Shown here: positions 6,184 through 58,237 of the stretch, in pieces | How the letters are laid out: each line of letters starts with the position of its first letter | Position numbering within the stretch: the stretch's first letter is position 1 | Assembly: GCA_038741355.1 (NCBI GenBank) | Contig: JAVYLC010000002.1 | Location: 8,738-72,737, forward strand | DNA length: 64,000 nt | Direction: 5' to 3' | DNA from: Nitrososphaerota archaeon | GTDB lineage: Archaea > Thermoproteota > Nitrososphaeria_A > Caldarchaeales > Calditenuaceae | Notes under the pieces: generated by a model | Told to the model about the DNA's origin: nothing | Databases searched by the model: none | Seen by the model: only the letters and a program-made list of their open reading frames with translations | Position numbers and translations under genes: made by a program

Positions 6184-6195
6184 TCGCCACCCCCA

Positions 6196-26459: not shown

Positions 26460-27116
26460 ATGGACTCGACCTCGACGTGGATAGGTGTGGTAATGATCCT
26501 TCTGGGGGTGGTGGGCATATTCCTGACGTATTCAGGAATCTCCCACACCTTCGAGCTTGGGCTCCAGGCCCTATCCTCCCTACTCTTATTCATGGGTGTC
26601 ATAATCTTCGCGGGGGGTCTTGCGAGAGGCGGATTCCCAAACGTGAAGCCAGTACACATCGCAGCCATAGGGCTAGTGGTCTTCATTTCCACCGCAGGCC
26701 TCACGGTCTCCGCCGTCACATACACAGGACCCTTCAAGCTTCTAAAGGCTAAAGAGGAGTTCAAGGAATCCCCCATAAAGGTCATAGTAAACATTATCCC
26801 CGGCTCTTGGGACCCAAATCAGCAAGACAATTTTGTGCCAAAGAGCATTCGTGTTGTGTTAAACATCAACCACACGATAGTCTGGATTAATAGGGAGAAC
26901 ATAGATGTCTCCCACACGGTCACACATGTCAACAGGCTATTCGACTCGGGCCTCTTCGGGCCAGGGATAAACTGGAGCTACTCCTTCAGAGACCCTGGCT
27001 CGTACCAGTACTTCTGTATTCCACACCCATGGATGAGAGGGTCGGTTGAGGTAGTCCAACTCCCGGACGAGGAGGTCCAGCAAATCCTCTCCTCCCTCGG
27101 ATTAGGGAGTGAATAA
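26460..27116 (+). CDS. membrane-anchored type-1 copper protein (amicyanin/sulfocyanin-like cupredoxin)
   Basis: 3 N-terminal TM helices. Copper ligands: an H in VSHTVTHV, then YQYFCIPHPWM, which gives C-x2-H-x2-M (amicyanin-like spacing). Confidence 0.7.
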   Translation: MDSTSTWIGVVMILLGVVGIFLTYSGISHTFELGLQALSSLLLFMGVIIFAGGLARGGFPNVKPVHIAAIGLVVFISTAGLTVSAVTYTGPFKLLKAKEEFKESPIKVIVNIIPGSWDPNQQDNFVPKSIRVVLNINHTIVWINRENIDVSHTVTHVNRLFDSGLFGPGINWSYSFRDPGSYQYFCIPHPWMRGSVEVVQLPDEEVQQILSSLGLGSE

Positions 27117-34999: not shown

Positions 35000-35278
35000 A
35001 TGCCCCACCGCATTGAGCTCTTCGTCGGCAGGTGCCCCCTGTGTGAGGAGGCGCGCAACATTTTGGAGGTGGGGAAGTGTTCTGGCTGCAGACTCGACAT
35101 ATACGACTTAGCGGTACAGTACGCCTCTATCCGAGAGAAGATCCGAGAATACGATATAAGATGTGTCCCAACCATCGTGATAGACGGGAAAATTAAGGTC
35201 GAAGGGCTTCCTCAATTCACATTTATCTGCAGCGAAGAGCTATACCGGCAACTAGAAATGAACTATCGTTTCAGATAG
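35000..35278 (+). CDS. glutaredoxin/thioredoxin-like small protein
   Basis: CPLC redox motif near the N-terminus. RCVPTIVIDGK is a Trx-fold cis-Pro loop. Confidence 0.55.
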   Translation: MPHRIELFVGRCPLCEEARNILEVGKCSGCRLDIYDLAVQYASIREKIREYDIRCVPTIVIDGKIKVEGLPQFTFICSEELYRQLEMNYRFR

Positions 35279-35387: not shown

Positions 35388-36533
35388 CTAACTCGATACG
35401 CTGTGCATGGTGGACCGGCTAGGCTCATATATGCATGCTGGATCAGTAGCTAATGGGTCCCCGCATTCAGCGTAGGCCCTTGCCCTAGAGCCGCCACATA
35501 TTGACTTATACTCACATACACCACAGCGTCCAGTGAACAATCCCTGGCGCATCTTAACGAGTAGGGGGTGCATCCTATATATCTCTACGAGGTTCCTAAC
35601 CCTGATATTACCAAGAGGGAAGGGTAGGAAACCTGAAGGGTAAACAATCCCGTTGTGGGAAACAAATACTATTCCAAAGCCGTCTCTCGTTGGTGTTATG
35701 GTCTGGGCGGGGCCGCGTTTAGGATCACCCATAAGTGAATGTAGCCTATCCACCAACTCGTTATAGAGCGGGCCCTCATACTTTGCCCCATTAGCCCTCT
35801 CCAGCATAGCCCTCCGGTAGAATGGCGCCTCTACGGTACGCAGCTGCAAACCATATCTCGATACGTCGACCAGAAATTGAACCACATCCTCATATTCTTG
35901 CGGCGTTATGTCGAGCTCCTTTACGGCGCGTCCAGTCACAATAAGGAAGAAGACCTCCCAAATCCTCACCCCTAAGTCCGTGATCAGTTTTACGATCATT
36001 GGAAGTTCTCTAAGATTCTTCCTCCAGATAACTGTGTTGACCTGTACTACAAGTCCAGCTTTAACAGCTCTTGATATTGCCTCTACTGTGGCTCCAAAGT
36101 TACCGGGTGTTTGCCTCATCTCTTCATGTGTTTCGGCGGTTGCACCATCAAGACTTATAGATATGCTCCTCACACCTGCCTCCTTGAGCCTATTTAGGAT
36201 CTCATCCGATAGGTTTGATGATACGGCCGGCGAGACTGCCACAGGAACACCATACGAGTTTGCATAGTCAATCAATTCGAAGAGGTCTTTGCGCATCAGA
36301 GGGTCGCCACCTGTTATCACAAGGAATGGTGAGGGGTGTCCAAAGGCAGCTACCTGTTCGATAAGGAGCTTCCCTTCACTAGTTGTTAGCTCACCCGGCA
36401 GGGGCTTAAGTATTGCATCGGCGCGACAGTGCTTACATGCTAACGGGCAGGCCTTGGTCGACTCCCAGAAGACCAAGAGAGGTGCTTCATGAAACCTGCT
36501 TATCCAATCTTCAATCCTCATAAACACATACAC
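35388..36533 (-). CDS. radical SAM protein with C-terminal SPASM/twitch domain (AhbD/NirJ-like heme-pathway radical SAM)
   Basis: CPLACKHC is the radical-SAM CxxxCxxC motif. ITGGDPLM follows. A C-terminal Cys cluster CGVCEYKSICGGSRARAYAECG...ACIY is present. It is the last gene of the heme operon. Confidence 0.75.
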   Translation of the reverse strand: MYVFMRIEDWISRFHEAPLLVFWESTKACPLACKHCRADAILKPLPGELTTSEGKLLIEQVAAFGHPSPFLVITGGDPLMRKDLFELIDYANSYGVPVAVSPAVSSNLSDEILNRLKEAGVRSISISLDGATAETHEEMRQTPGNFGATVEAISRAVKAGLVVQVNTVIWRKNLRELPMIVKLITDLGVRIWEVFFLIVTGRAVKELDITPQEYEDVVQFLVDVSRYGLQLRTVEAPFYRRAMLERANGAKYEGPLYNELVDRLHSLMGDPKRGPAQTITPTRDGFGIVFVSHNGIVYPSGFLPFPLGNIRVRNLVEIYRMHPLLVKMRQGLFTGRCGVCEYKSICGGSRARAYAECGDPLATDPACIYEPSRSTMHSVSS

Positions 36534-36536
36534 ACC

Positions 36537-37025
36537 TCATGAGAACCTGAGTAGTGTACCCATCGCAATAATAGCGAGGGTCAGACATAGGGTAGCCCAT
36601 CCAACCACCAACATCTTTAACCTATCCCTAGAGTATTCTGGCCCATCCTCCATCTCGTAGAGCCTTCTACCTAGTCTCGAGTGTAGAGGGAGCATAAGGA
36701 GCACGGCTACGGTTAAGATCATCTTGATCAGCAAAATCATGCCCAAGTGTGTTGCATAGAAGGCCAGACTTGTAAGCAACTGGACTCCAAACCCCCGTGT
36801 TAAAAGGATGAACAGCCCAGACACCACGGCTAGGTAGAGAGAGTACCTCATAGGTCTCTGAATAGCTCTCCCAACAACTCCCAGCATCTTCGTGGCCTCT
36901 ACAGGGGGGTAGGTCTTTCTTAAACGCCTGTTTACAATCACGGTGAAGAGTATTCCCCCAACCCACAATGATGCGCTGACTATGTGAACTAGCTTAATAA
37001 TTGTTAGAACAGTTAGGATGCTCAA
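36537..37025 (-). CDS. 4-TM membrane protein, HemJ-like (protoporphyrinogen oxidase HemJ / CopD-like)
   Basis: 162 aa. The N-terminal helix carries KLVHIVSASLWVGGILF, which resembles the HemJ signature (H...W.GG.F). Its coordinates overlap hemE (37022-37025) on the same strand. Confidence 0.4.
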   Translation of the reverse strand: MSILTVLTIIKLVHIVSASLWVGGILFTVIVNRRLRKTYPPVEATKMLGVVGRAIQRPMRYSLYLAVVSGLFILLTRGFGVQLLTSLAFYATHLGMILLIKMILTVAVLLMLPLHSRLGRRLYEMEDGPEYSRDRLKMLVVGWATLCLTLAIIAMGTLLRFS

Positions 37026-38065
37026 CCCTCCTCTCCTCTCCCCCCGTATTCGTGGACAAACTCTACAAGGGCTGCCACGTTGTCGGGCGGAGTCTCTGGG
37101 AGTACCCCATGGCCCAGGTTGAAGATGTGTCCAGGCCTATCTCTCGTCGCATCTATTATCTTGCCCGCCCTTGATACAATAATATGCCGGTCCGCTAGGA
37201 GGACGGCGGGGTCTAGGTTGCCCTGTATCCCCACATCGTATCCTATGCTTCGCCAAGCCCGGTCTATCTCTATGCGCCAGTCAATACCTATCACGTCGGC
37301 GCCCGTTCTCTTCAAAAGCTCAGGCATCCCCGCACTGCAGGTAGTGAAGTATATCACTGGCACCCCTCGATTTTTTATATCTTCGACAAGAGTCTTCACG
37401 TATGGAAGAACACTCTCTCTGTAGTCTGACGGCGACAGACTCCCAGCCCAGCTATCGAAGAGCTGGATAACCCGAGCACCTGCAGCAACCTGTAATTTAC
37501 AGTATTGCGACACAGCCTCACTGACGGTCTCCATAAGCACCTTCCAGAGGTATGGTCTCCTATACATTAGGGACCTCGCTAAGGGAAAATCTCTGGACAC
37601 CACATCGCCTACCATGTAACAAGCGGTGGTGAATGGCCCGCCCGCAAAGCCTATTATTGGTACTCTATCATTAAGGATTGACCTGGCGAGACGTATCGTC
37701 TCGTAGACGTAGCCGACCTTAGAGCTGTCAAAGTTCTGTATATCTTTGACGTCTCCCTCATCCCTAATGGGTTTCTCGACCACTGGGCCTTCACCATCAA
37801 CTATTCTAAACGACACGCCTAAACCCTCTAGGGGGACGGCTATGTCGGCGAATAGTATTGCTGCATCCACACCGAATTTTAAAACTGGAAGAGCGGTTAG
37901 CTCCGCAGCGGCTTCTGAGTCTTTGCATAGTGATAGTAGGTCCCGATCCCTCCTCAACCCCCTATACTCGGGAAGGTATCTCCCAGCCTGTCTCATCAGC
38001 CAGATGGGCTTCTTATCTGTCTTTTCCAGCCTACACGCTCTAAGAAGCCTGTCATTCACGCCCCT
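37022..38065 (-). CDS. hemE: uroporphyrinogen decarboxylase
   Basis: NDRLLRA...PIWLMRQAGRYLPEY is the HemE N-terminal signature. The start was trimmed to a GTG near 38065. The track ORF extends to 38113. Confidence 0.85.
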   Translation of the reverse strand, partial: RGVNDRLLRACRLEKTDKKPIWLMRQAGRYLPEYRGLRRDRDLLSLCKDSEAAAELTALPVLKFGVDAAILFADIAVPLEGLGVSFRIVDGEGPVVEKPIRDEGDVKDIQNFDSSKVGYVYETIRLARSILNDRVPIIGFAGGPFTTACYMVGDVVSRDFPLARSLMYRRPYLWKVLMETVSEAVSQYCKLQVAAGARVIQLFDSWAGSLSPSDYRESVLPYVKTLVEDIKNRGVPVIYFTTCSAGMPELLKRTGADVIGIDWRIEIDRAWRSIGYDVGIQGNLDPAVLLADRHIIVSRAGKIIDATRDRPGHIFNLGHGVLPETPPDNVAALVEFVHEYGGRGEEG

Positions 38066-39371
38066 CACCGATGACGCGCAGGGCTTCAGTGAACGCTTCA
38101 ATCGATCGCTCAATTACTGCTTCTTCGTGTGAGGCTGAAACGAATATCGTCTCGAATGGTGAAGGTGGGAGTAGAACTCCTCTCCTAGCCATTTCCCAGA
38201 AGAGCCGCGTGAAGCTCCCCCTATTACTGCTTAGCACATCACTGTAATTCTCGATCTTCTGTCTGTCTGTGAAGAATAAGCTAATCATCGAGCCAACCCT
38301 ATTTATGAGCATGGTGACGTTTGAGTTATTTGCAGCCTCGACTATCCCCCGCTCCAGCATCGAAGATAGTCGCTCAAGCTTCTCATACACGTGGGGTGTG
38401 AGGAGGTCGATGGTGGCTATGCCGGCCGACATAGAGATAGGGTTCCCTGAAAATGTCCCCGCTTGATATACTCTCCCAGTCGGAGCCAAAAGCTTCATTA
38501 TTTCTTCTCTACCACCAACAGCTCCTATCGGGAATCCCCCACCAATGATTTTCCCCAAGCAAGTAAGATCGGGGTGGACACTGTAAAGCTCTTGGACCCC
38601 ACCCCTTGTAATCCTGAACCCTGTTATGACCTCGTCGAATATTAGCAGGGAGCCGTACTTCTCCGTTATATCTCTGAGTGCCTCAAGAAAACCTTGTTTA
38701 GGAGGTACCACCCCCATATTTCCCGCTATGGGTTCAACTATTACACAGGCGATCTCGGGCCCGGCTTGTCTGAAGACTCTTTCCACCACGCTGGTATCGT
38801 TATAGGGAACTGTTATCGTGTCCTTGGTTATCTCTTCGGGGATACCGTCTGAGGCCGGCAGCGAGTAAGTCGCTAGCCCTGAGCCGGCCTTTGTCAGGAG
38901 GTAGTCAACGTGGCCGTGGTAGCATCCGTCGAACTTCAGGACCTTCCTCCTGCCGGTGTAGGCCCTCGCCAGGCGGATTGCCGTCATGGCTGCCTCAGTC
39001 CCCGAATTAACGAATCTGACAAGCTCGATCGATGGGAAAGCCTCGGCTATCCGCTCAGCTAGCTCTATTTCGAGCTCGTTTGTAAGACCGAGGATCGATC
39101 CACGCTCTAATGCCTCCTGCACAGCCAGTAAAACCTCTCTTCTAGCATGGCCGAGTATGAGGGACCCCCACCCGCAGATTAAGTCCACGTATTCGTTCCC
39201 GTCAGCGTCGTAGATGTAGGGGCCCTCCCCTCTCCTTACAATCAGGGGCTCACCCCCAACAGACATGAAGGACCTTACCGGACTGTTGACCCCCCCAACA
39301 AGGATTTTCATGGCTCTCTTATACTTCCTGTGGGATTCCTCTATCCGTGGGCTAGATCCTTGGGCGGTCAT
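38052..39371 (-). CDS. hemL: glutamate-1-semialdehyde 2,1-aminomutase
   Basis: Class III aminotransferase fold. The PLP-lysine region FDEVITGFR is present. 439 aa. Confidence 0.9.
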
Positions 39372-40360: not shown

Positions 40361-41112
40361 GGGTTCAGCCCCCTCACTAGCGCCTCAACAACCCCCCCGG
40401 CAGTGTGTCTTTCGGCTACTATGTGAGCCCTCAAACCGAGTTCCTCGGCAGCCATAGCCGTCACAGGTCCTATGCAACACACTATCACATCTTCTCTGAG
40501 GGCCCCACCATGTGAGTCTAAAGCTCTCTTCAACGCCTCAGCGGTTGAGGGGCTCGTCAATATCACCACGTCAAACTGGGGGAGCGTTGCTGGGCAGTCT
40601 ACTGTGCTGACTTTATATGCAGGCACCTGCTCTACAACAGCGCCCCTCATTTCAAATATCCTTGCCATTAGATCGTCCACACCCTCGCTCCTCACGAGTA
40701 ATACCCTCTTACCGGAAACGTCCGGTAGCTGTTCCGCCAAAGTTTTTGTCAGGTATTTGGAGGGAGTGAAGGAGACTTTTAGGCCTTTCTTTTCAGCCTC
40801 TTTCGCCGTGGCTGGGCCAACTGCTGCAACCCTACCCCTTATTCGACTGAGGTCTACGCCCCTATTGGTAGCCCTCTCTACGAATGCCCTAACACCTGCC
40901 TTACTGGTGAAGACTATCCAGTCATAGCCGTCCAGCCTGCTGAGAACGCTCTCTAGAGCAGACCAATCAGTCGGCGGCCCCCTTTGTATAAGTTCGAGGT
41001 GAATAGGCTCCCCTCCCAGCTCGTAGATGATTCTGCTCAGCTCATCTGCTTCCTCCCTTGGTCTTAGGAAGAGGACCCTTCTGCCCCTGAGCGGTTTTAT
41101 CAATGCTCCCAC
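40354..41112 (-). CDS. hemD: uroporphyrinogen-III synthase
   Basis: 252 aa with the two-lobe HemD pattern. Located between hemC and hemB. Confidence 0.7.
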
Positions 41113-42044
41113 CCTTTTGACGCTACTTGTGCCTTCAACGTCACGATGCGTTCGGCAAGCCTGTAGCCAATCGCCGCCGCCTCTGAAACCTCACCACACT
41201 CGACAAGCCTGATGATTTCCCAAGAGTCAGGTAGAGAAACCATACCATCCAATAACAGCCTTCCATCCTCTATACGCGCGTAAGCCGCTACAGGAATGTC
41301 GCATCCACCCCCAATTCTAGCCATGAAGGCCCTCTCTGCCTCAACGCAGATCCTGGTCTCGCGGTGATCTATTCGTTCCAATACTTGGAGGATGTTCGCG
41401 TCATCCTCCATGGCTTCTACAGCGAGGGCACCCTGACCGGGAGCTGGTAGTACCGATTGAACTGGTAAGAATTCCGACACCAAGTCAGCTAGACCGAGCC
41501 TCTTTAACCCCGCGAATGCAAGCACGATGGCATCTAAATTAAGTTCCGAAAGCTTCCTTATCCGGGTGTCAACATTCCCCCTAATCTCTACAATATGCAG
41601 GTCAGGTCTTATGGATAGGAGCTGAACCTTTCTCCTAATACTGCTGGTTCCGACCCTTGCGCCTTCAGGAAGCTCTGATAATCTTTTCCCCTGCCTCGAA
41701 ATTAATACGTCACGAGGATCCTCCCTAGGGGGGACGGCGGCGATTATCAACCCCTTTGGCAGCTTAGCCGGCATATCCTTCATACTATGTACCGCGAAGT
41801 CTATCTCTCCCTCTAAGAGTCGCACTTCTATTGCCTTGACGAAGGCATCCTTGCCCTTCTTGGGCCGACCCTCCTTGAAGTCCTCGTCACCCTCAGTAGC
41901 AATGGGTACGATCTCGAACCTCAGGCCAGGCGAGATCGATCGGAGAGTCTCCACTACCGATTCAGTCTGGTTGATTGCGAGTCTACTCCTCCTACACCCA
42001 ACCCTAATTACTCGGCTCAGCAAGCCCGAACAAATCCCTAGCAA
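41100..42044 (-). CDS. hemC: hydroxymethylbilane synthase (porphobilinogen deaminase)
   Basis: LRIGCRRSRLA...SIRRKVQL matches HemC N-terminal motifs. The dipyrromethane cofactor Cys region GGGCDIPV is present. Confidence 0.9.
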   Translation of the reverse strand: MLGICSGLLSRVIRVGCRRSRLAINQTESVVETLRSISPGLRFEIVPIATEGDEDFKEGRPKKGKDAFVKAIEVRLLEGEIDFAVHSMKDMPAKLPKGLIIAAVPPREDPRDVLISRQGKRLSELPEGARVGTSSIRRKVQLLSIRPDLHIVEIRGNVDTRIRKLSELNLDAIVLAFAGLKRLGLADLVSEFLPVQSVLPAPGQGALAVEAMEDDANILQVLERIDHRETRICVEAERAFMARIGGGCDIPVAAYARIEDGRLLLDGMVSLPDSWEIIRLVECGEVSEAAAIGYRLAERIVTLKAQVASKGWEH

Positions 42045-45118: not shown

Positions 45119-45768
45119 GGGACTGTCAACTTAAGGCCACCCATGACCTTATCCACTTCTCTGATACCTTAGGCCTGTATGTTGGGGAGCATGTGTTGAA
45201 CTGTTTTATTCTTCTCTTGAGCTTGCTGAACCAAGACTCTATCGCGTTCCTCCTGCCGAATGTCTCTACCCTCCTCCTAAAGCCCAGAATCTTCATGGGC
45301 CATCGGTACCATGGAGCCCTATCCGTGTAGACGGTAGGGTTATTAGCGCACCTATCCCTAACCACCTCAAGGAACCTTATACACTCGGCTATCCCCCTAC
45401 CCCTAGATACCTGGACTGCCATCACCTCCCTAGCAGCCCATAGATAGGCCCTCCTGACGAGATTACGGATTACTATCGGCCCACGCCTACGCCTATCTAC
45501 AAGTGAGAAGGCCTCACCAGCCCTAAGGAACCAACCCCTAACAGACTGATGGCTCACCCTGAATCCTAGCTCTCCTAAGACCTCTGCAACCCCTCTAAGA
45601 CTGAGCCCCCTCCACATACATCCTGACAGCAAGCCCCCTAACCCATGAAGGATAACGCATACGAGGAAAGACACTTCTATCACCAAAGAAACCCATAAGA
45701 CGGCCTAGGCCGACCCCAACTCTATCCACCCCCAACTAATGGGAAGGCCCAGACCATAGACCTTAAGT
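45119..45768 (-). mobile_element. IS6-family insertion sequence, copy 2 (intact)
   Basis: Perfect 18-bp terminal inverted repeats: GGGACTGTCAACTTAAGG at 45119-45136 and CCTTAAGTTGACAGTCCC at 45751-45768. An 8-bp direct repeat TTAACATT flanks both sides, which is the TSD length typical of IS6. Confidence 0.7.
45126..45686 (-). CDS. IS6-family DDE transposase (short form, 186 aa)
   Basis: HTH motif LGFRVSHQSVRGWFLRAGE. TDRAPWY. C-terminal RRNAIESWFSKLKRR resembles the IS6 N.IE..H..IKRR catalytic E/K region. Confidence 0.65.
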   Translation of the reverse strand: MVIEVSFLVCVILHGLGGLLSGCMWRGLSLRGVAEVLGELGFRVSHQSVRGWFLRAGEAFSLVDRRRRGPIVIRNLVRRAYLWAAREVMAVQVSRGRGIAECIRFLEVVRDRCANNPTVYTDRAPWYRWPMKILGFRRRVETFGRRNAIESWFSKLKRRIKQFNTCSPTYRPKVSEKWIRSWVALS

Positions 45769-46790: not shown

Positions 46791-47942
46791 ATGTTGAATT
46801 ACTTAAAGAAGCGTGAAGTGTTTATCTCTGTTCTACTTCAGCTCGCTCTAGCATTCTTCTTCGCTCATGGATATGATTTCCGTGTAAACTATCTGGCTGG
46901 AAGAAATATTGTTTTAGGTTTGTCTCCTTACCAGGGCGGATATTTAGAGGGGCCGTTGGCTGTAGGGTATGGCCCGTATGTGCAGGGTTTGGGTGAAACT
47001 CCTTTGTGGGCCCTTTACGCAGGACTAGCGTACATTGCATCAGCAGGCAACTTATTCCTCTTTAACTTGATTCTAAAGATACCTATCATCATTGCGAATG
47101 TAGCCCTCAGCTTTCTTACAATGAAAAAAGGTGGCGACAGTTTCTTCTTCCTCTACAATCCATACCTTCTCTTAGTCTCTGCAGTATGGGGAAAACCTGA
47201 TAATGTGGCAGTATTGCTCGCAGTAGCATCAATTACCATATTGCATAGATACTATGGCTCTTTGTCGGTGGCTGTATCGGTGATGATCAAGCCGCTGGCT
47301 CTTGTAATGGCGCCATCATTCATACTGGCTTGGTGGAAAGAGAAGGAAAAAATATTCATCGCTTTTGTAGCGTTGGTTCTGATGTTTTTTACACCTTTCG
47401 TCTTATTGAACTGGAGGTTGGAGACTGTCGTCTATGGATTTCCTAACTGGTTTAGATCAGTTGGTGGGATATCTCCGTTTGATTTTGTAGAAGCAGTTTA
47501 CGGGACATCAACCGTACCCACGTGGCTTGAGCCTATATCATATCTTTCGGCGGTCTCTCTAGCGGTTATGGTTATGTTGGCGATTAAGCGCCCACCGACG
47601 AGTATTGATGGTATATTCCGTCTAGGTCTTGTCTCTGCATCTCTTTTCTTTAGCCTTCGCCCATGGGTGTCGGAGCAAAACCTTCTCATCATTTTGTCGC
47701 TTTTTATCATTGTCTGCGGCAGACTGCCTTCCCGGCTGCTTTGGATAATTCCTTTGATATTCGCTGGTCTTAATCTATCGATACCACAACAGCTATATCT
47801 TTTATATCCCTCAATAATTGAGGATCTTATTGCTTTAAATCATCCTATCAGGTACTGGCTTAAGTTCGTAGTGTCGGTAGCCTGGGTTATTGTTCTATGG
47901 ACGGTGCTGGTTAAAAAGTGTCTGTGGAAGTGGTGGATTTAA
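46791..47942 (+). CDS. polytopic membrane protein, possible GT-C-type glycosyltransferase (DUF2029/PMT-like)
   Basis: 383 aa with ~10 TM segments. An acidic first loop (HGYDF) and W-rich periplasmic loops are present. No definitive motif was found. Confidence 0.35.
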   Translation: MLNYLKKREVFISVLLQLALAFFFAHGYDFRVNYLAGRNIVLGLSPYQGGYLEGPLAVGYGPYVQGLGETPLWALYAGLAYIASAGNLFLFNLILKIPIIIANVALSFLTMKKGGDSFFFLYNPYLLLVSAVWGKPDNVAVLLAVASITILHRYYGSLSVAVSVMIKPLALVMAPSFILAWWKEKEKIFIAFVALVLMFFTPFVLLNWRLETVVYGFPNWFRSVGGISPFDFVEAVYGTSTVPTWLEPISYLSAVSLAVMVMLAIKRPPTSIDGIFRLGLVSASLFFSLRPWVSEQNLLIILSLFIIVCGRLPSRLLWIIPLIFAGLNLSIPQQLYLLYPSIIEDLIALNHPIRYWLKFVVSVAWVIVLWTVLVKKCLWKWWI

Positions 47943-48595
47943 AGATAGTCGTTAGAGGATTAGCGGCTGTACATATTTTATGGGGGCTATCCCTTCTACT
48001 AGAGCCTACTAGGTATGTTTCTAAACCTATCATACCTGCTTTATTCGCGTCTATACATTTTATAATCTTCCTCCTACTGTTGACTCATGAGAAGTACGGA
48101 GCTGTTTTGGGGTCTGTTTTTCTAACCTACTATTGGTTTTTTGTTAAACCTATCGCGCCGATAGCTGAGCCTCAAACAGTTGGGATACTTAGCATCACAC
48201 TATCCATTCTAACACCATATGCCCCAAAACTGTCGCCAGATAAACATGGAACAATTCAGGATGCTCTACTGAGACTTGGCTTGGCCTATCCCTTTATTGA
48301 GTGGGGGTTAGATGCTTTCCGTAACCCTCTTCATTTCAAATCATATCTTTCTGGAAATGTTATAACATCTTTTCTTATACCGACAGGTCTCCTCGACCTG
48401 GCTGTATTATGTCTTGGTTTATTTGAAGTTTCTCTATCGCTTCTAATTTTGACAGGTTTTAAGAGGCGTGTAGTCTCGTTCCTGACATTCTCTGTATTGA
48501 TTGTTTTTTCCTTAGTGGCCGGCTATCCACTCGCGCTACCTCAGAACATAGCTCTCATGGGCGTTGCATATATTTGGCTTAAGCCATCTTCTTGA
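47918..48595 (+). CDS. membrane protein (DoxX-like, 5-6 TM)
   Basis: 225-aa hydrophobic ORF. Overlaps the upstream gene by 25 bp. Confidence 0.35.
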   Translation: MSVEVVDLKIVVRGLAAVHILWGLSLLLEPTRYVSKPIIPALFASIHFIIFLLLLTHEKYGAVLGSVFLTYYWFFVKPIAPIAEPQTVGILSITLSILTPYAPKLSPDKHGTIQDALLRLGLAYPFIEWGLDAFRNPLHFKSYLSGNVITSFLIPTGLLDLAVLCLGLFEVSLSLLILTGFKRRVVSFLTFSVLIVFSLVAGYPLALPQNIALMGVAYIWLKPSS

Positions 48596-49958
48596 ACTTA
48601 TGATCTGTGTAGAATTCCCATGGCTTCAGCAATATATAAAATGGTCCAATCTTTTTCCTCAGCTTGGCTTGGGTCACAGCTTTCCACATGCCATACTTGA
48701 GTTTCTCTATGCTGAAGTCGTGTTTAAAGAGTAGGCGATGGTCATAGCCGTGAAGGGGTTTCTCCCATTCCTCTACAAGCATCTTATCTTTTACCATTTC
48801 ATAAAGTTTGGTTCCAGGAAGCGGGTAAGGTACTGTCATGGAGAAATAGTCAAGGGGGAGGCTTGACGCCATTTTTATTGTTTTTAGCATTGTCTCGTTT
48901 GTCTCACCAGGATATCCGAGTATGAAAAACGCGCCAACTTTTATGCCGGCCTTAACACCCGTATAAACAGCTTTCTTAGACTGCTCAACTGTCAGTCTTT
49001 TATTCATGAGTTGAAGCGTCCTATCATCGCCTGCCTCGAGTCCGAAAATTATTTTATGGCATCCTGCGCGTTTCATGGCTTTAGCGACCTCTGCGTCGAA
49101 CAGATCAGCCCTAGCCAGACACTCCCATAGGATGTCCAGCTTCCTATCCATTATTTCGCGACATAGCCGTAGAACATGTCTTTTATTGGCTATAAACAGC
49201 TCATCAGCAAACCATATCCTTTCATAGCCAAACTTATACCGTATCTCCTCCATCTCGTCGACTATGTTTTCAGGGCTTCTTGTACGATAAACGCGGCCGT
49301 AGTCTGGCCGCCAGCAAAAACCGCATGAAAAAGGGCAGCCCCGCGAGGCTATCATCGAGGTCATGGTGTATCCGTAGTTTCGGAGATAGTACCGCTTATA
49401 GTGATCGTTATCATATAGATCCCTAGCCGGGAAGGGTAGGTCGTCTAAGTTTTTTATGAGAGGCCTTTGCCCCGTGAAGAAGTGACTGTCACTGTTGGCT
49501 GGAACAGCTTGGGTGGTCTTTTTTAAAAATTGCCCAGAAATGTGCAGGCCTTTAACACGCTGGAATTTCATGCTGTTATCTAATTCGGTCATTAGCTCAA
49601 GCATTGCTTCCTCACCTTCACCCTGAACAGCGATATCGAATAGGCCGAGGAATTTTGCCGGATATGCTGAAGGCATGGGTCCACCGGCGACAAGTAGCTC
49701 TACCTTCTCCCTTAGCGCAGAGGCTATATCCAATGCCGGCTTCACCATCGAAAGCATGCTGTAGATGCCTACTACCCTTGACTGCGCCGCTTCTCTTATA
49801 ACGTCTTCTATTTTTTTGAATGTACAGTCAATGATTTTGACTTTGTATCCATGCATTCTAATATACGATGCAATATATCCTATGCCCAGCGGTGGAAACT
49901 TAAAAGATCTAGACCTACCGTCATCGAAGTATGGAAAGATGAGCGCTAAGTCATTCAA
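48579..49958 (-). CDS. B12-binding domain radical SAM protein (class B rSAM)
   Basis: N-terminal cobalamin-binding Rossmann-like region (LGIGYIASYIRMHGYKVKIID). The radical-SAM motif CPFSCGFC follows. 459 aa. Confidence 0.8.
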   Translation of the reverse strand: MNDLALIFPYFDDGRSRSFKFPPLGIGYIASYIRMHGYKVKIIDCTFKKIEDVIREAAQSRVVGIYSMLSMVKPALDIASALREKVELLVAGGPMPSAYPAKFLGLFDIAVQGEGEEAMLELMTELDNSMKFQRVKGLHISGQFLKKTTQAVPANSDSHFFTGQRPLIKNLDDLPFPARDLYDNDHYKRYYLRNYGYTMTSMIASRGCPFSCGFCWRPDYGRVYRTRSPENIVDEMEEIRYKFGYERIWFADELFIANKRHVLRLCREIMDRKLDILWECLARADLFDAEVAKAMKRAGCHKIIFGLEAGDDRTLQLMNKRLTVEQSKKAVYTGVKAGIKVGAFFILGYPGETNETMLKTIKMASSLPLDYFSMTVPYPLPGTKLYEMVKDKMLVEEWEKPLHGYDHRLLFKHDFSIEKLKYGMWKAVTQAKLRKKIGPFYILLKPWEFYTDHKFKKMA

Positions 49959-53393: not shown

Positions 53394-56300
53394 TTGATGA
53401 ATTTGATTGATGGAAGATTTCTGAAGGAGCGAGGATACGATGTTTATAATGGAAACGAACTAGTAGTAAAAGGCGCACTAGAGGCCGGCATACCAATAGC
53501 ATCTGGCTATCCGGGTTCTCCAGTTGCTGAGTTTTTCACATTTACTGAGAAATACGCAGATTGGCTTGCAGAAAATGGATTTTATTGGGAAGCTGCAAAA
53601 AACGAGGCCGAAGGAGCAGGTAGGCTCAATGGCGCAAGAATTATCAACAAAGATGCAATGGTTGTCATGAAGAGTGTCGGATTAAACGTCGCTACTGACC
53701 CCTTGGAAATTTCTAATTATCAAGCAGCTGCAACTATTGGATGGGGTGGAGTTGTTGTAGTTGGGGATGATCCGCATGCTTCTAGCACACAGATTGCTTC
53801 CAGCTCAAGACTTCTGCTAAAGAAGCTTAGGATACCAATTTTAGAGCCTAGTACTCCGCAAGAAGTGAAAGATTACATTGGAGAAGCATTGGAATTATCA
53901 CGGTCATCGCAGTTAATAGCCGGATATATCATCCAATCATGGCAAGCTGATGGAATAGGGTCGGTGGAACTCTATAAAAACAAATATCCGACTAGAGTGA
54001 AAGAAAGGATTGATATAAGTAAAATAAATGTGGAGAAAGAAGTAAGCCTTCCTCCGGTTACTGCGGAGTTAGAAAAAGATATTGTTATAAGGAGGTTTCC
54101 GGCCGCGGTAAGTCATGCAAGAAGAAGGAATCTGAATCGAATACTTTATTCGGATGGTGGAAAAAGGAAGATTGGATTCGTTACCTCTGGTCTGGCTTAT
54201 AACTATCTCGAACAAGCATTGTATGAGTTGGGAATGCAGGGAAGACTTCCTATTCTAAAACTGGGACTGGTTTATCCACTTGATGAGAATTTAGTGAAAG
54301 ATTTTGCAAGACAAGTTGAAAACATTTATGTCGTAGAGGAAAAAGAGCCTTTCATAGAGTCTGAGATTTCTCTTATTCTGAGAGACGCTTACCAAAACAA
54401 AGAAATCGAATATGTTAACGTTTGGGGCAAAAGATTCCCTAACGACAGGGAGGGCTTCCCTGAACACGGCGGTCTGAGTCCCACTATTGTGATTAAGATA
54501 ATAGGTGAAGAGCTACTCAATGCTTTAGATGATTTGTCTTATGAAGAGAAAAGTAGAATTAATAAGGTCCTCGAACTAGTCGAGGACGCTAACAAATATT
54601 CCTTACAGCCTCCAAAAAGGATTCCTACCTATTGTGCAGGCTGCCCACACAGGGGGACTAGTAGTGTTCTTAAATATTTGAGGAGGTCTCCTGGAAATGA
54701 TTTCCTCACAGTACCAGACATCGGGTGCTATTCAATGTCGGCTTTTACTCCGTGGAAGGAGGCCCACGCTTTCAATGCAATGGGTCGTGCAGGAGCCTCT
54801 GCATATTCCATGGGGGTAGTAGAAAACAAGAAAGTTCTTCTCGTTGGTGATGGAACTTTCGTCCACGGCGGCTATGTGTCTGTACAGGAAGCTATAGACA
54901 AAAATCTAGACGCCATCATAGTTATACTTTATAATCACTATGTGGCCATGACCGGGCATCAAAAAGTTCAGATAAAGGATGCAAAAGATATAGAGGAAAA
55001 AGTAAAAGCGATGGCGAGAGGAAAGGATGTCTATGTAAGAATAATAGATCCAGATGATAGGAAAGGCTACATTGAAGAAATGAAAAAACTGATGAATAGA
55101 AAAGGTACAGCTGTACTGATCTCGGATAAGGAATGCGGTATAACTAGGGAAAGGAGAAGGAGGGCTGAGAGGGCGGGAAAACCTAAGACGGAATTCATAA
55201 ACATAACTAACGAAGTATGTGAGAACTGCAGGGAGTGCACCATGAACACAGGCTGCCCAGGGTTAACTCTTGTAAACACGCCGTATGGCGAAAAAGTTGC
55301 GATAGACATGTCAATATGCACAGAGGATGAGTACTGTGCGAAAATAGAAGCCTGCCCCTCATTCGAAAGAGTTAGGGTGCACTACGCAGGAGGGAAACCA
55401 AAGGAGAGATTGCTTGATTCAGAACTGGATGGTGTGCCAGAACCTGATAATAAGGTAGAGTTTAACGATACTTACTCTATTTACACCGCAGCTGTTGGCG
55501 GTATGGGTGGTGGGCTGCTCTCCGTGATTTTGGCTCGAGCTGGAGCGAAAAGCGGCTATAATATAGGTAGATGGATAGGACACGATAAAAAAGGATTAGC
55601 CATAAGAAATGGCGGTGTTTACAGTCATATAATATTTTCTAAAAACGATGCACAATTATCTCCTGTTATTGTAGCCGGCAAAGCTGATCTAATAATTGGT
55701 CTTGACAAGCTTGAAGGCTCAAAGGGGTTAAAGTATGCTAACGCTAGTACAAAATTTGTTTCAAATCAAACAGAGCTACCTACCATACCTATGCTCATAG
55801 GAGAGGAGGAATATCCACACGATATTGACGAAAAAATTAAAAATAGGTTGACATCATATAATAATTATGGGCTGCCGATTTCGGAGCTTGCAGAGTTTTA
55901 CTTAGGAAACAAACTATTTTCCAACATAGTCATGCTGGGAGTCTGCTATCAGCTCGGCCTATTACCATTGGACTCTAAAAATATAGAGGATGCGATAATT
56001 GAATCAGTCAAAGCAGAGCGGGAGAAAAATCTAAGGGCTTTCAAGTTTGGAAGGAAGCTTGTGTATGACAGTACTTTTTTGGATAAGCTAATAAACAATC
56101 CTCATTTCCTAAGAATATACCATGAACACATGTGGTTTTCAAGAAGATCTCTGGAAGAGGTACTCTATGAGAAGAAGGACTATCTGAAAGATTACTATTT
56201 GATAAAGTCTAGGGGGTTGAAAATTGCTAATATGTATGAAAAACTAATAAAAGATTTTAAGAATGATAAAAAGTTGGATGAAGATGCCTTGAAACATTTT

Positions 56301-57364: not shown

Positions 57365-58237
57365 CTACTGGGTCAGAGGAATACACAGCCCATACAACTG
57401 CATAGAATACCTTCAATAAAGTTTCTAAAACCTTCTGAGGAGCCTGCGTATGTTGTAGGTGTAGTTGCTGGAGAAGGTTATGTCCTGCGGCGGCGACGGC
57501 TTCGAAAATCATACCACGAAGTGTATGTAGGGTTGAAAGTTAGGGATAGGGAGTTTGCTGAGGAGTTCTCAAGATGTCTTGCAGTAGTCTTGAAGAGAGA
57601 ACCGCCTAAACCTGCTGATCCTAGGTCGTCGGGAGGACGATTCGTCGTCGAACTAGAAAGTAAGGTCCTCTACGAGCTGCTGAAGAAGCCTTTAAGGCTG
57701 GAGAAGATCAAAAAGTTTATAGAACACTCTAACCGATGTAAATCGGCCTTCCTGAGAGGCTTCTTCGACAGCGAAGGAAGCGTAGATGAGGACGGAGAAG
57801 TAACAGTCTATAACACCGACTTAGCCCTGCTTAGATACGTCAAACAACTTCTCTCTTCTCTAGGGATAGAGACTACAGGACCACATCTCTACTCAAGGCG
57901 TGGAACGGCCTTCAGAGACCCGAGGACGGGAAAAACATATAGGACTAAGAAGGACGCATATGGGTTATATGTTACCGCTGGCTCTCGGCTGATGTTCTAC
58001 AATCGCGTAGGATTCACGGTGAGAAGAAAACAGCAGAGGCTGGAGAACTACCTCACAAGGACTGGACGGCTAAAACCCCCAGCCAACCCACCCCCCATCT
58101 CTTCCCAACCACATCACGATCACGATAATAATGTACAAGGTACGGGCCCGCTGGGACTTGAACCCAGGACCTTCGGCTCCGGAGGCCGACGTACCAGAGA
58201 TATTACATGCATAATATCTTCTCTGTGTCCATGCTGA
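57365..58237 (+). CDS. double-motif LAGLIDADG homing-endonuclease-like ORF; no canonical start codon upstream of motif 1 (possibly decayed)
   Basis: Motif 1 PAYVVGVVAGEGY at 57443-57481. Motif 2 SAFLRGFFDSEGS at ~57737-57775. Their ~99-aa spacing resembles I-DmoI-type enzymes. The frame is open from 57365, but the first ATG/GTG/TTG is the GTG at 57521. The 3' end runs antisense through the tRNA. Confidence 0.55.
   Translation, partial: LLGQRNTQPIQLHRIPSIKFLKPSEEPAYVVGVVAGEGYVLRRRRLRKSYHEVYVGLKVRDREFAEEFSRCLAVVLKREPPKPADPRSSGGRFVVELESKVLYELLKKPLRLEKIKKFIEHSNRCKSAFLRGFFDSEGSVDEDGEVTVYNTDLALLRYVKQLLSSLGIETTGPHLYSRRGTAFRDPRTGKTYRTKKDAYGLYVTAGSRLMFYNRVGFTVRRKQQRLENYLTRTGRLKPPANPPPISSQPHHDHDNNVQGTGPLGLEPRTFGSGGRRTRDITCIISSLCPC

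What the first reader, a model, noticed from the sequence alone, without database searches (positions are those of the whole stretch)
36537..37025. Small 4-TM protein with HemJ-like histidine/WxGG motif embedded between hemE and the radical SAM gene
Its first helix reads KLVHIVSASLWVGGILF. Synechocystis-type HemJ protoporphyrinogen oxidases have a conserved N-terminal His followed by a W-x-G-G-(L/I)-F patch in TM1. HemJ is a small 4-5 TM protein of about this size. Its coordinates overlap the hemE stop (37022-37025) and it precedes the radical SAM gene by 4 bp, so it is expressed with the operon. HemJ has not been biochemically defined in archaea as far as I know. A homolog here could oxidise protoporphyrinogen or coproporphyrinogen.
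Basis: partly seen in the sequence, partly recalled or inferred. Interest (0 to 1): 0.55.

Follow-up and report, generated by a model that had tools for sequence, protein, structure and literature searches.

The report
HemJ-like membrane protein in archaeal heme operon
A small four-helix membrane protein, distantly related to the bacterial heme enzyme HemJ, sits inside the heme-synthesis operon of hot-spring archaea and is the best candidate for an oxidation step for which no gene is otherwise seen in these operons.

Summary
Window 36537-37025 (- strand) is a real, conserved 162-aa gene (dN/dS 0.11-0.19). It overlaps the hemE stop by 4 nt and ends 3 nt before a radical SAM gene, inside an eight-gene operon hemA-C-D-B-L-E-X-rSAM. 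AlphaFold gives four long membrane helices (pLDDT 95.9).

The protein is not a HemJ orthologue: it fails PF03653 and TIGR00701, and HemJ and subfamily HMMs do not find each other. It belongs to a small archaeal branch (about 20 clusters at 90% identity; named members are Nitrososphaerota/Caldarchaeales) of the CopD-like superfamily that includes HemJ. Profile-profile alignment with real HemJ (probability 74-91%) superposes its invariant His14, Trp21, Lys101 and His115 on HemJ's invariant His, Trp, Lys and His.

In 7 of 9 lineages the gene is adjacent to, or within a gene or two of, a terminal heme-synthesis gene. One contig reads hemAC-hemD-hemB-chdC-X-hemL-hemE-hemH, a coproporphyrin-pathway operon lacking only the coproporphyrinogen oxidase.

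Best reading (confidence 0.5): an oxygen-independent, membrane-bound porphyrinogen dehydrogenase, most likely oxidising coproporphyrinogen III, paired with an AhbD-like radical SAM heme synthase.

Not shown: heme binding, activity, substrate, absence of CgoX/CgoN elsewhere in the genomes, and the chelatase in this window.

The parts
36537..37025 (-). The finding: a 162-aa, four-helix membrane protein of the CopD/HemJ-like superfamily (archaeal heme-operon subfamily). It is the candidate porphyrinogen dehydrogenase.
   Evidence: ORF and translation. dN/dS 0.13-0.18. AlphaFold2 pLDDT 95.9 with four TM helices. Superfamily placement. hhalign to HemJ, probability 74-91%.
36984..36986 (-). Codon of His14 (TM1, outer half of the membrane). 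It aligns with the invariant TM1 His of HemJ and is the putative heme b ligand.
   Evidence: Invariant in 24/24 subfamily members and at least 90% conserved in 147 relatives. Aligned to HemJ His. Its role as a ligand is inferred.
36963..36965 (-). Codon of Trp21, seven residues after His14. HemJ has the same spacing.
   Evidence: Invariant. HemJ invariant W15 lies seven residues after H8.
36723..36725 (-). Codon of Lys101 (TM3, outer half of the membrane). It aligns with the invariant Lys of HemJ.
   Evidence: Invariant in 24/24 and in the 119-sequence alignment. hhalign register.
36681..36683 (-). Codon of His115 (cytoplasmic end of TM3). It aligns with the invariant second His of HemJ.
   Evidence: Invariant in 24/24. 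hhalign register. Position from helix boundaries and the positive-inside count.
37022..38113 (-). hemE, uroporphyrinogen decarboxylase, which makes coproporphyrinogen III. The true start is probably about 18 codons downstream of the longest-ORF start.
   Evidence: TIGR01464 392.8 bits and PF01208 400.9 bits. Orthologues are 337-345 aa.
35388..36533 (-). Radical SAM/SPASM protein of family TIGR04053. Its nearest characterised relative is AhbD (heme b synthase). Proposed role: oxygen-independent coproheme decarboxylase.
   Evidence: TIGR04053 507.6 bits (cut-off 395). AhbD TIGR04545 295 bits over its full length, below the 500 cut-off. The function is inferred.
38052..39371 (-). hemL, glutamate-1-semialdehyde aminomutase
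   Evidence: TIGR00713 595 bits
39368..40360 (-). hemB, porphobilinogen synthase
   Evidence: NF006762 498.8 bits
40354..41112 (-). hemD, uroporphyrinogen-III synthase
   Evidence: Several uroporphyrinogen-III synthase models match, E down to 5.5e-28, all below their equivalog cut-offs. PF02602 HEM4 is recorded for the orthologues.
41100..42044 (-). hemC, hydroxymethylbilane synthase
   Evidence: TIGR00212 339.5 bits
42004..43251 (-). hemA, glutamyl-tRNA reductase; first gene of the operon
   Evidence: TIGR01035 265.9 bits

Best explanation
The gene encodes a four-helix, N-out/C-out membrane protein of the CopD/HemJ-like superfamily. I propose that it performs the six-electron oxidation of a porphyrinogen in the terminal part of heme synthesis without using oxygen.

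The most likely substrate is coproporphyrinogen III, the product of the upstream HemE, oxidised to coproporphyrin III. By analogy with HemJ, electrons would pass through a bound b-type heme to the membrane quinone pool. Candidate heme ligands are the invariant His14 and/or His115, possibly contributed across a dimer. A chelatase would then insert iron. That chelatase is a CbiX-like gene next to the radical SAM gene in sister lineages, hemH in one lineage, and is not found in this window. The downstream TIGR04053 radical SAM protein, an AhbD relative, would finally decarboxylate coproheme to heme b. Together these steps would make an oxygen-independent, archaeal version of the coproporphyrin-dependent pathway.

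Shown here: the gene is real, conserved, translationally coupled within the operon, has four TM helices, belongs to the superfamily, and its conserved residues align with those of HemJ.

Inferred: heme binding, catalytic activity, substrate, electron acceptor, and the role of the radical SAM partner.
For: (1) Position. The gene is the seventh of eight tightly packed or overlapping genes hemA-C-D-B-L-E-X-rSAM.

(2) Conserved context across divergent members (29-86% identity). The full hemACDBLE-X-rSAM operon occurs in L001/L025, L004/L024, L008 (Calditenuaceae HR02), L010, L012-14 and L038/39. The hemerythrin-X-TIGR04053 rSAM arrangement occurs in L040/41.

(3) Contig L011 reads hemA/C fusion-hemD-hemB-ChdC-X-hemL-hemE-hemH. 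Every step from glutamyl-tRNA to heme by the coproporphyrin route is present except the coproporphyrinogen oxidase, and X is the only unassigned gene. It overlaps chdC by 11 nt and abuts hemL.

(4) Homology to the one known membrane-bound, heme-b-containing, oxygen-independent porphyrinogen oxidase. hhalign against four real HemJ sequences gives probability 74-91% and E from 1e-6 to 3e-5. His14, Trp21, Lys101 and His115 fall on HemJ's invariant His, Trp, Lys and His. In alpha-proteobacteria hemJ also directly follows hemE.

(5) The cytoplasmic loops are rich in conserved Arg/Lys (R33, R36, R60, R135 invariant or nearly so; 6.6 and 5.8 K+R per loop against 0-1.3 on the outside). That is compatible with binding a polycarboxylate porphyrinogen at the cytoplasmic face.

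(6) The partner rSAM family is nearest to AhbD. Elsewhere it sits in anaerobic or heme-demanding contexts: Thermus nirSJM, haloarchaeal nirK/norB islands, and Deinococcus next to P450/CbiX/cobA. AhbD in coproporphyrin-pathway organisms is an accepted anaerobic substitute for ChdC (PMC13564367).

(7) Only CgoX and CgoN are known for this step, and neither appears in any of these operons.
Against: The single sequence fails every curated HemJ and CopD model.

HemJ is only detectable at profile-profile level.

The nearest relatives are bacterial CopD/DUF4149 proteins. These sit next to nirK, SCO1 and NsrR-like genes, a context that fits copper handling or NO stress rather than heme synthesis.

Two of the nine archaeal lineages examined have no heme gene nearby. 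One lies next to cofG/cofH (L027) and one next to cobQ/cbiA (L015, L028, L036/37).

No chelatase is detectable in the 64-kb window.

I could not check whether these genomes encode CgoX, CgoN, HemG or HemY elsewhere.

In one lineage hemE is truncated while X and the rSAM remain intact.

No structural comparison with HemJ models was possible, because the fold libraries were unavailable.

HemJ itself is poorly characterised biochemically.
Confidence: 0.5

Rival explanations
1. Classical HemJ function. The protein oxidises protoporphyrinogen IX to protoporphyrin IX. The adjacent radical SAM enzyme would act as an oxygen-independent coproporphyrinogen decarboxylase (functionally like HemN/CgdH), giving a protoporphyrin-type route.
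For: Homology to HemJ with the conserved residues aligned. The hemE-hemJ adjacency is the same as in alpha-proteobacteria that use the protoporphyrin route. The rSAM's substrate is unproven, since it scores below the AhbD equivalog cut-off.
Against: The rSAM belongs to the AhbD/NirJ SPASM group. Its characterised members act on metallated tetrapyrroles, and it did not match a HemN-type model among the listed hits. In L011 the partner genes are ChdC and a ferrochelatase, with no HemF/HemN-type gene. That is the signature of the coproporphyrin route.
Confidence: 0.13
2. A membrane redox partner for the radical SAM enzyme. A small cytochrome-b-like protein would take the electrons released during the two oxidative decarboxylations by the AhbD-like enzyme, or supply its reducing electron, and connect them to the quinone pool. 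It would not itself touch the porphyrinogen.
For: The most constant neighbour is the TIGR04053 rSAM, found next to the gene in 6 of 9 lineages. This includes L040/41, where no hemE is nearby. It also includes the lineage whose hemE is truncated.
Against: In L011 the protein occurs with ChdC and without any rSAM. TIGR04053 genes in Thermus, haloarchaea and Deinococcus have no CopD-like neighbour in the regions examined.
Confidence: 0.12
3. Metal handling, as the family name CopD suggests. The protein would be a copper (or iron) permease or chaperone that happens to be encoded in, or supplies metal to, the heme operon.
For: The nearest relatives match the CopD model (136 of 147 by Pfam; 140 of 147 by NCBIfam). 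Sources call them 'putative copper export/resistance protein'. Bacterial relatives sit beside nirK and SCO1/SenC. L040 has a ZnuABC transporter downstream.
Against: No copper-resistance or copper-chaperone gene lies in the archaeal operons. The names are automatic annotations. The heme-operon context is conserved down to about 30% identity. The superfamily also contains HemJ and the N-terminal domain of a membrane urate oxidase.
Confidence: 0.1
4. A membrane protein with another role around tetrapyrroles, such as anchoring the soluble enzymes, exporting or sequestering porphyrin intermediates, or salvaging external coproporphyrin(ogen). It would have no redox catalysis of its own.
For: Tetrapyrrole-related neighbours differ between clades: heme, cobalamin amidases, and a hemE-less lineage that keeps X and the rSAM.
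Against: Invariant His, Lys and His within the membrane helices, shared with a known redox enzyme, point to cofactor binding rather than scaffolding. A four-helix, 162-aa protein is small for a porphyrin transporter.
Confidence: 0.1

Closest known systems
HemJ / PgdH2 (Pfam PF03653 UPF0093; NCBIfam TIGR00701), the membrane-bound, b-heme, oxygen-independent protoporphyrinogen IX oxidase of proteobacteria and cyanobacteria
   Same: Similar size: 140-178 aa for HemJ against 162 aa here. Helical membrane protein. Conserved TM1 His followed seven residues later by Trp, and a conserved Lys and His in the third helix, all in the same alignment register. Located directly after hemE in some genomes. 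Acts, or is proposed to act, in terminal heme synthesis.
   Different: There is no HMM-level similarity. The query fails PF03653 and TIGR00701, and HemJ and subfamily HMMs do not recognise each other. It is archaeal, whereas no HemJ was found in 89 archaeal genomes in 2014. HemJ's conserved PRL-x-VYH and NE-x-P motifs are absent. The context points to coproporphyrinogen rather than protoporphyrinogen as substrate.
Bacterial single-domain CopD/DUF4149 proteins (about 165-170 aa; Pfam PF05425 + PF13664), function unknown
   Same: These are the nearest sequence relatives outside the archaeal subfamily: full-length alignments at 23-33% identity, with the same invariant His, Ala, Trp, Gly, Gly, Lys and His. 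They supplied the alignment that gave the confident four-helix model.
   Different: They are bacterial. The two examined lie divergent from an Rrf2 regulator, nirK, a nirV-like gene and SCO1, not in heme operons. They pass the CopD model, which the archaeal protein does not.
CgoX (HemY) and CgoN (YtpQ), the two known coproporphyrinogen III oxidases of the coproporphyrin-dependent pathway
   Same: They carry out the reaction proposed here and hold the same place in the pathway, between HemE and the coproporphyrin ferrochelatase (PMC13564367; PMC10965808). Like CgoN, the proposed reaction would be oxygen-independent with a quinone-type acceptor.
   Different: Both are soluble FAD enzymes unrelated in sequence. 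This is a four-helix integral membrane protein with no flavin-binding domain and no match to such families.
AhbD-substituted coproporphyrin pathway of anaerobic or facultative Gram-positive bacteria
   Same: HemE is combined with a radical SAM coproheme decarboxylase in place of ChdC, without the other Ahb enzymes. The operon here pairs hemE with an AhbD-like rSAM.
   Different: The rSAM here is a TIGR04053 member, not an AhbD equivalog (295 bits against a cut-off of 500). The organism is an archaeon. The oxidase step would be done by a membrane protein. The chelatase may be CbiX-like rather than CpfC.

Membership tests
HemJ / PgdH2 (PF03653, TIGR00701) | Scores above the curated threshold of the family HMMs | tested here: not met
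   No PF03653 or TIGR00701 hit for the query even at E<=10. Only 8 of 24 subfamily members give weak PF03653 hits (best E=1.1e-5). A HemJ HMM built from 4 real HemJ sequences scores subfamily members at 17 bits or less.
HemJ / PgdH2 (PF03653, TIGR00701) | Conserved N-terminal His in TM1 (reported heme ligand; my recollection of Skotnicova et al. 2018, paper not held), with Trp seven residues later | tested here: met
   His14 and Trp21 are invariant in 24 of 24 members. They align to HemJ H8/W15 in hhalign.
HemJ / PgdH2 (PF03653, TIGR00701) | Conserved Lys and second His in the third helix | tested here: met
   Lys101 and His115 are invariant. They align to HemJ K84/H95 (L019 numbering).
HemJ / PgdH2 (PF03653, TIGR00701) | Small (about 140-200 aa) polytopic helical membrane protein | tested here: met
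   162 aa with four TM helices, pLDDT 95.9. Real HemJ sequences here are 140-178 aa.
HemJ / PgdH2 (PF03653, TIGR00701) | Binds heme b; homodimer | not testable with these tools
   The property is reported for Synechocystis HemJ (PMC13564367). It needs purified protein.
HemJ / PgdH2 (PF03653, TIGR00701) | Protoporphyrinogen IX oxidase activity, or complementation of a hemG/hemY mutant | not testable with these tools
   Requires an experiment.
CopD-like superfamily (PF05425 CopD, PF13664 DUF4149, PF10027 DUF2269, PF03653 UPF0093, PF06181 Urate_ox_N) | Detectable profile similarity to superfamily members over the whole four-helix unit | tested here: met
   An exhaustive profile search finds 177 representatives at E<=1e-3, mostly full-length and about 165 aa. 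Of 147 of them, 136 match CopD, 108 DUF4149, 49 UPF0093, 23 DUF2269 and 8 Urate_ox_N. The query itself scores only E=0.003 on NF033808 and E=0.25 on DUF2269.
CopD copper-resistance/homeostasis protein (NF033808 equivalog) | Scores above the equivalog cut-off; roughly 295-position model with eight or so helices; copper-resistance gene context (copC/copA/copB) | tested here: not met
   17.2 bits against a cut-off of 195, matching only model positions 148-251 of 295. No cop genes occur in the window near the operon or in the related loci.
Coproporphyrin-dependent (CPD) heme pathway, as a system | HemE producing coproporphyrinogen III | tested here: met
   TIGR01464 392.8 bits.
Coproporphyrin-dependent (CPD) heme pathway, as a system | A coproporphyrinogen oxidase (CgoX or CgoN) | tested here: inconclusive
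   None was found in the operon, in the roughly 30 window ORFs scanned against Pfam or NCBIfam, or among the recorded or scanned genes of the related loci. The rest of the window and the rest of the genomes could not be searched. The protein studied here is the candidate replacement.
Coproporphyrin-dependent (CPD) heme pathway, as a system | A coproporphyrin ferrochelatase | tested here: inconclusive
   Not detectable in the window by tblastn with hemH or the CbiX-like protein. hemH is present in L011 (TIGR00109 236.5 bits against a cut-off of 124.6). A CbiX-like ORF follows the rSAM in L010 and L012-14.
Coproporphyrin-dependent (CPD) heme pathway, as a system | A coproheme decarboxylase (ChdC or AhbD) | tested here: inconclusive
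   The window rSAM aligns over the full length of AhbD but scores below its cut-off (295 against 500), and belongs to the uncharacterised family TIGR04053. L011 has a ChdC homologue (PF06778; HemQ_actino 106.7 bits, below the 235 cut-off).

The most novel reading that the evidence does not exclude
This archaeal subfamily is a third, non-homologous type of coproporphyrinogen III oxidase, after the soluble flavoenzymes CgoX and CgoN. It would be a membrane-bound, heme-b, quinone-linked enzyme distantly related to HemJ. Together with a TIGR04053 radical SAM coproheme decarboxylase, and in some lineages a small CbiX-type chelatase, it would form a fully oxygen-independent coproporphyrin pathway in thermophilic Nitrososphaerota/Caldarchaeales. 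That group has been described as using only the siroheme route or as heme auxotrophs.
Probability: 0.35. Interest if true: 0.75.

Novelty: new variant of a known kind. Interest (0 to 1): 0.62.

Why it matters
A 2026 review of heme biosynthesis states that all known heme-making organisms are now covered by the enzymes of the three described routes. It names only CgoX and CgoN for coproporphyrinogen oxidation (PMC13564367).

A 2024 survey of 2,978 archaeal genomes found complete coproporphyrin pathways only in some Halobacteria and one Hydrothermarchaeota genome, and 'partial' classical pathways in many other archaea (PMC11459464).

Aigarchaeota (now Caldarchaeales) with highly expressed heme-copper oxidases were inferred to be heme auxotrophs (PMC4681859).

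If this protein is the oxidase, several things would follow:
- The 'partial' pathways would be complete.
- A new enzyme type would be added to a textbook pathway.
- Cultivation advice for these archaea would change.
- The poorly characterised HemJ/CopD superfamily would gain a second, thermostable and experimentally attractive redox member.

The hypothesis can be tested directly by complementation and in vitro assay.

Tried and rejected
- Single-sequence Pfam and NCBIfam scans gave no usable hit.
- The first AlphaFold model, from a 3-sequence alignment, was poor (pLDDT 63) and was discarded.
- Foldseek against the PDB returned only generic helical bundles and cytochrome bd subunit I, all at E>=0.3, so there is no informative solved relative. 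A profile search of PDB sequences also found nothing.
- Broad alignments (A3, A8) had no stretch conserved enough for collection scans. The narrower A6 found 5 genome loci and 7 metagenome loci, mostly lineages already seen.
- tblastn for a ferrochelatase, CbiX-like chelatase or ChdC in the window was negative.
- About 20 neighbouring window ORFs scanned by Pfam showed nothing related to heme or copper resistance.
- Literature searches for HemJ+CopD and for TIGR04053 returned nothing. The key HemJ paper (Skotnicova 2018) and the 2017 MMBR review are not held.
- Pseudogene or spurious ORF: rejected, given dN/dS 0.11-0.19 and conservation down to 29% identity.
- Copper-resistance CopD: considered unlikely because of context, but kept as a low-weight rival.
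- My recalled Synechocystis HemJ sequence was used only as a tblastn probe to fetch real, annotated hemJ genes. It was not used as evidence.
Full report
**The object**

Window 36537-37025 (minus strand) holds a 162-aa ORF with a TTG start. Its start overlaps the stop of the upstream gene as TTGA. Its stop lies 3 nt before the longest ORF of the downstream gene.

The upstream gene is a bona fide uroporphyrinogen decarboxylase (TIGR01464, 392.8 bits). The downstream gene is a radical SAM/SPASM protein of NCBIfam family TIGR04053 (507.6 bits, cut-off 395). Its next-best model is the heme b synthase AhbD (295 bits over the full length, below the 500 cut-off).

Further upstream, with overlapping or abutting reading frames, lie hemL, hemB, hemD, hemC and hemA. 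The finding is therefore the seventh gene of an eight-gene operon, hemA-C-D-B-L-E-X-rSAM. The exact protein is on record as a hypothetical protein of a Nitrososphaerota archaeon metagenome-assembled genome.

**Is it a real gene?**

Yes.
- Orthologues at 86% and 65% identity give dN/dS of 0.13-0.18.
- Another clade gives 0.11 for this gene and 0.12 for the radical SAM gene.
- Orthologues in other lineages start with ATG at the same position, overlapping hemE.
- AlphaFold2 with three sequences gave a poor model (pLDDT 63). With a 119-sequence alignment it gave pLDDT 95.9 and four long helices: 3-38, 41-76, 93-124 and 129-161.
- Counting K+R in 24 subfamily members gives 6.6 and 5.8 in loops 31-60 and 115-137, against 0-1.3 elsewhere. 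This indicates an N-out/C-out topology.
- In that topology His14 and Lys101 sit in the outer half of the membrane. His115, Arg33, Arg36, Arg60 and Arg135 sit at the cytoplasmic face.

**What family is it?**

On its own the sequence matches nothing significantly. There is no PF03653 (HemJ) and no TIGR00701 hit. CopD NF033808 scores E=0.003 (17 bits against a cut-off of 195), and DUF2269 scores E=0.25.

A word-indexed search found only three close relatives. An exhaustive HMMER search of 1.84 billion cluster representatives found 177 proteins at E<=1e-3. Almost all are 150-175 aa and align over their full length.

Of 147 of these, 136 match Pfam CopD, 108 DUF4149, 49 UPF0093 (HemJ), 23 DUF2269 and 8 the N-terminal domain of membrane urate oxidase. 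By NCBIfam, 140 match CopD and 13 weakly match HemJ.

Across these relatives His14, Ala18, Trp21, Gly23, Gly70, Gly95, Lys101 and His115 are invariant or at least 90% conserved.

A closer archaeal subfamily has about 20 clusters at 90% identity. Its named members are Nitrososphaerota, Caldarchaeales and Calditenuaceae genomes. In it, His14, Trp21, Gly23, Arg33, Leu63, Gly70, Lys101, His115, Arg135, Gly142 and Gly156 are invariant in 24 sequences. Individually these members give only sub-threshold hits to DUF2269 (13), UPF0093 (8) and CopD (7).

**Relation to HemJ**

I fetched four real, annotated hemJ (or HemJ-like 'CopD family') genes from public replicons of Legionella, Acinetobacter baumannii, Sinorhizobium and Sphingomonas.

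Profile-profile comparison gave:

| Query alignment | Probability | E-value |
|---|---|---|
| 13-sequence subfamily | 74% | 2.8e-5 |
| 24-sequence subfamily | 77% | 2e-5 |
| 119-sequence wider family | 91% | 9e-7 |

In every case His14, Trp21, Lys101 and His115 fall on HemJ's invariant His, Trp, Lys and His.

At HMM-to-sequence level the two families do not see each other. The HemJ HMM gives subfamily members 17 bits or less, and the subfamily HMM does not report HemJ at all. The bacterial CopD/DUF4149 proteins score a median 61 bits.

So this is a homologue of HemJ at superfamily level, not an orthologue. No solved structure exists for any member: a PDB profile search found nothing, and Foldseek's best hits had E>=0.3 and were generic bundles. 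This agrees with a 2026 review stating that HemJ has not been crystallised and is little characterised beyond being a membrane-bound, homodimeric b-type hemoprotein (PMC13564367).

**Genomic context across lineages**

Context is the strongest functional evidence. I examined nine distinguishable lineages of the archaeal subfamily.

| Lineage (identity to query) | Gene order |
|---|---|
| Window clade (86%, 65%) | hemACDBLE-X-rSAM |
| P0156 (51%) | Same operon, followed by an ORF whose first 82 residues resemble the CbiX-like protein |
| P0004 (54%; one population seen in many samples) | Truncated hemE (C-terminal about 140 aa)-X-rSAM-CbiX-like fragments; no hemA-L upstream |
| P0013/P0159/P0161 (31-34%) | hemACDBLE-X-rSAM-CbiX-like |
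| Calditenuaceae HR02 (36%) | hemACDBLE-X-rSAM |
| P0007 (39%) | hemerythrin-X-TIGR04053 rSAM (443 bits) |
| P0010 (about 33%) | hemA/C fusion-hemD-hemB-ChdC-X-hemL-hemE-hemH |
| P0005 (43%) | X-cofG-cofH |
| P0009 clade (about 30%) | GNAT-X-ORF, divergent from cobQ and cbiA |

Seven of the nine lineages place X beside, or within a gene or two of, a terminal heme-synthesis gene.

The P0010 contig (L011) is the most informative. It encodes every step of the coproporphyrin-dependent route from glutamyl-tRNA to heme except coproporphyrinogen oxidase. X is the only unassigned gene there, overlapping chdC by 11 nt and abutting hemL.

**The partner radical SAM enzyme**

TIGR04053 has no characterised member that I could find. 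In Thermus thermophilus it is the 'nirJ' of the nirSJM nitrite-respiration operon. In haloarchaea it lies beside nirK and norB. In Deinococcus ficus it lies beside a P450, a CbiX/SirB protein and cobA.

Its closest characterised relative is AhbD, which decarboxylates coproheme to heme b. AhbD is already known to replace the peroxide-dependent ChdC in anaerobic coproporphyrin-pathway bacteria. I infer the same role here, but this is not shown.

**Proposed mechanism**

HemE makes coproporphyrinogen III. X, a HemJ-like membrane protein, removes six electrons to give coproporphyrin III and passes them through a bound heme b to the quinone pool. A chelatase inserts iron. The rSAM (or ChdC in L011) then forms the two vinyl groups.

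The conserved basic residues at the cytoplasmic face would suit a tetracarboxylate substrate.

X together with the rSAM would be the oxygen-independent counterparts of CgoX together with ChdC. That would explain why the two genes travel together.

Shown: gene reality, topology, superfamily homology with aligned conserved residues, and conserved operon context. Inferred: heme binding, catalysis, substrate, electron acceptor, and the rSAM's reaction. My confidence is about 0.5 for a porphyrinogen dehydrogenase role with coproporphyrinogen as the favoured substrate.

**Weaknesses and rivals**

- The nearest relatives are bacterial CopD/DUF4149 proteins next to an Rrf2 regulator, nirK, a nirV-like gene, SCO1 and NnrS. 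That context fits copper delivery or NO stress. It could also fit an anaerobic-heme role, but this is speculation.
- Two archaeal lineages lack heme neighbours.
- No chelatase is detectable in this window.
- I could not search whole genomes for CgoX, CgoN, HemG or HemY.
- The hemE-truncated lineage keeps X and the rSAM intact, which is unexplained. It could reflect salvage of external coproporphyrin(ogen) or recent decay.
- Rivals kept, with my confidence in each: classical protoporphyrinogen oxidase (0.13), redox partner of the rSAM (0.12), metal handling (0.10), and a non-catalytic tetrapyrrole-related role (0.10).

**Comparison with what is known, and novelty**

Kobayashi et al. (2014) found HemJ in none of 89 archaeal genomes. 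A 2024 survey of 2,978 archaeal genomes reports complete coproporphyrin pathways only in some Halobacteria and one Hydrothermarchaeota genome, and 'partial' classical pathways in many other archaea. Beam et al. (2015) inferred heme auxotrophy for Aigarchaeota despite highly expressed heme-copper oxidases. Searches for HemJ together with CopD, or for TIGR04053, found no paper.

I rate this as a new variant of a known kind: a HemJ-like superfamily member in a new domain of life, probably acting on a different substrate within a differently assembled pathway. It is testable by complementation and in vitro assay. Interest 0.62.

Noticed in passing
L005-L007, L026, L031-L035 (e.g. L006 6552-8738): One Caldarchaeales population, seen in many samples with over 99% identical DNA, has hemE reduced to its C-terminal 140-150 aa. 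It has no hemA-L upstream, and the CbiX-like ORF is split across frames. The membrane protein (162 aa) is intact in every copy. The radical SAM gene is intact (379 aa) in most copies but split or shortened in L005 and L007. The sister lineage (L038/L039) has the full operon. dN/dS between the two lineages is 0.11-0.12 for both genes. This could be recent decay or a salvage function.
   Followed up: partly
L011 372-8087: An AT-rich metagenome contig of unknown taxon carries a near-complete coproporphyrin-pathway operon. It includes a hemA-hemC fusion ORF (628 aa), a short ChdC (213 aa) and hemH, with the membrane protein in place of CgoX.
   Followed up: partly
L016-L018 (gene at 6001-6513): The bacterial CopD/DUF4149 relatives lie divergent from an Rrf2 (NsrR-like) regulator followed by a cytochrome-c-fused multicopper nitrite-reductase-like gene, an FGE-sulfatase (nirV-like) gene and SCO1/SenC. 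NnrS lies nearby. This looks like an NO/denitrification module whose CopD-like member has no assigned role.
   Followed up: no
L029 5986-7113; L030 5929-7056; L043 4968-6074; L042 4950-6119: The TIGR04053 radical SAM family is the 'nirJ' of the Thermus nirSJM operon. It also sits beside copper nitrite reductase or NorB in haloarchaea, which need no heme d1, and beside P450/CbiX-SirB/cobA in Deinococcus ficus. The 'heme d1 synthesis' label in Thermus may deserve re-examination as an anaerobic heme b synthase.
   Followed up: partly
L015 2649-6568; L036 4614-8459; L028: In an AT-rich clade of the subfamily (about 30% identity; includes 'Crenarchaeote SCGC AAA261-N23') the gene lies in a GNAT-X-191aa unit divergent from cobQ and cbiA/cobB (cobalamin amidases). 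In L028 it appears fused to an ABC-2 permease across an assembly gap, which is probably an artefact.
   Followed up: partly
L027 9989-13067: In a Nitrososphaerota genome (ERB_5_1) the 43%-identical homologue is directly followed by cofG and cofH (F420 chromophore synthase subunits). A deoxyhypusine synthase gene lies upstream on the other strand. No heme genes occur within 10 kb.
   Followed up: partly
window 37022-38113 / 38052-39371: The longest hemE ORF (363 aa, TTG) overlaps hemL by 62 nt. Orthologues are 337-345 aa and the Pfam match starts at residue 20, so the true start is probably the GTG about 18 codons downstream.
   Followed up: partly
window 35000-35278 (+): A small thioredoxin/glutaredoxin-like protein (92 aa with a CxxC motif) is convergent with the end of the operon. 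It is conserved at the same place in the 86% relative (L004/L024) together with the aldo-keto reductase next to it.
   Followed up: no
window 45126-45686 (-); L001 1-336: An IS6-family transposase lies about 2 kb upstream of hemA in the window. A DDE_Tnp_IS240 fragment lies just upstream of hemA in L001, hinting that the operon borders a mobile or rearranged region.
   Followed up: no
window 57521-58237 (+); L038 10955-14068 (-): A free-standing LAGLIDADG endonuclease-like ORF follows the 1215-aa ORF at 53394-57041 in the window. That ORF was not scanned; the corresponding 1213-aa product in the 86% relative L004 carries TPP_enzyme_C, POR and DUF6537 domains. In L038 a radical SAM gene next to the operon carries an intein with a LAGLIDADG domain.
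   Followed up: no
window 48579-49958 (-), 47918-48595 (+), 26460-27116 (+): Other redox-related genes in the window: a B12-binding radical SAM protein, a DoxX-domain membrane protein, and a plastocyanin/azurin-like copper protein. None is linked to the operon.
   Followed up: no
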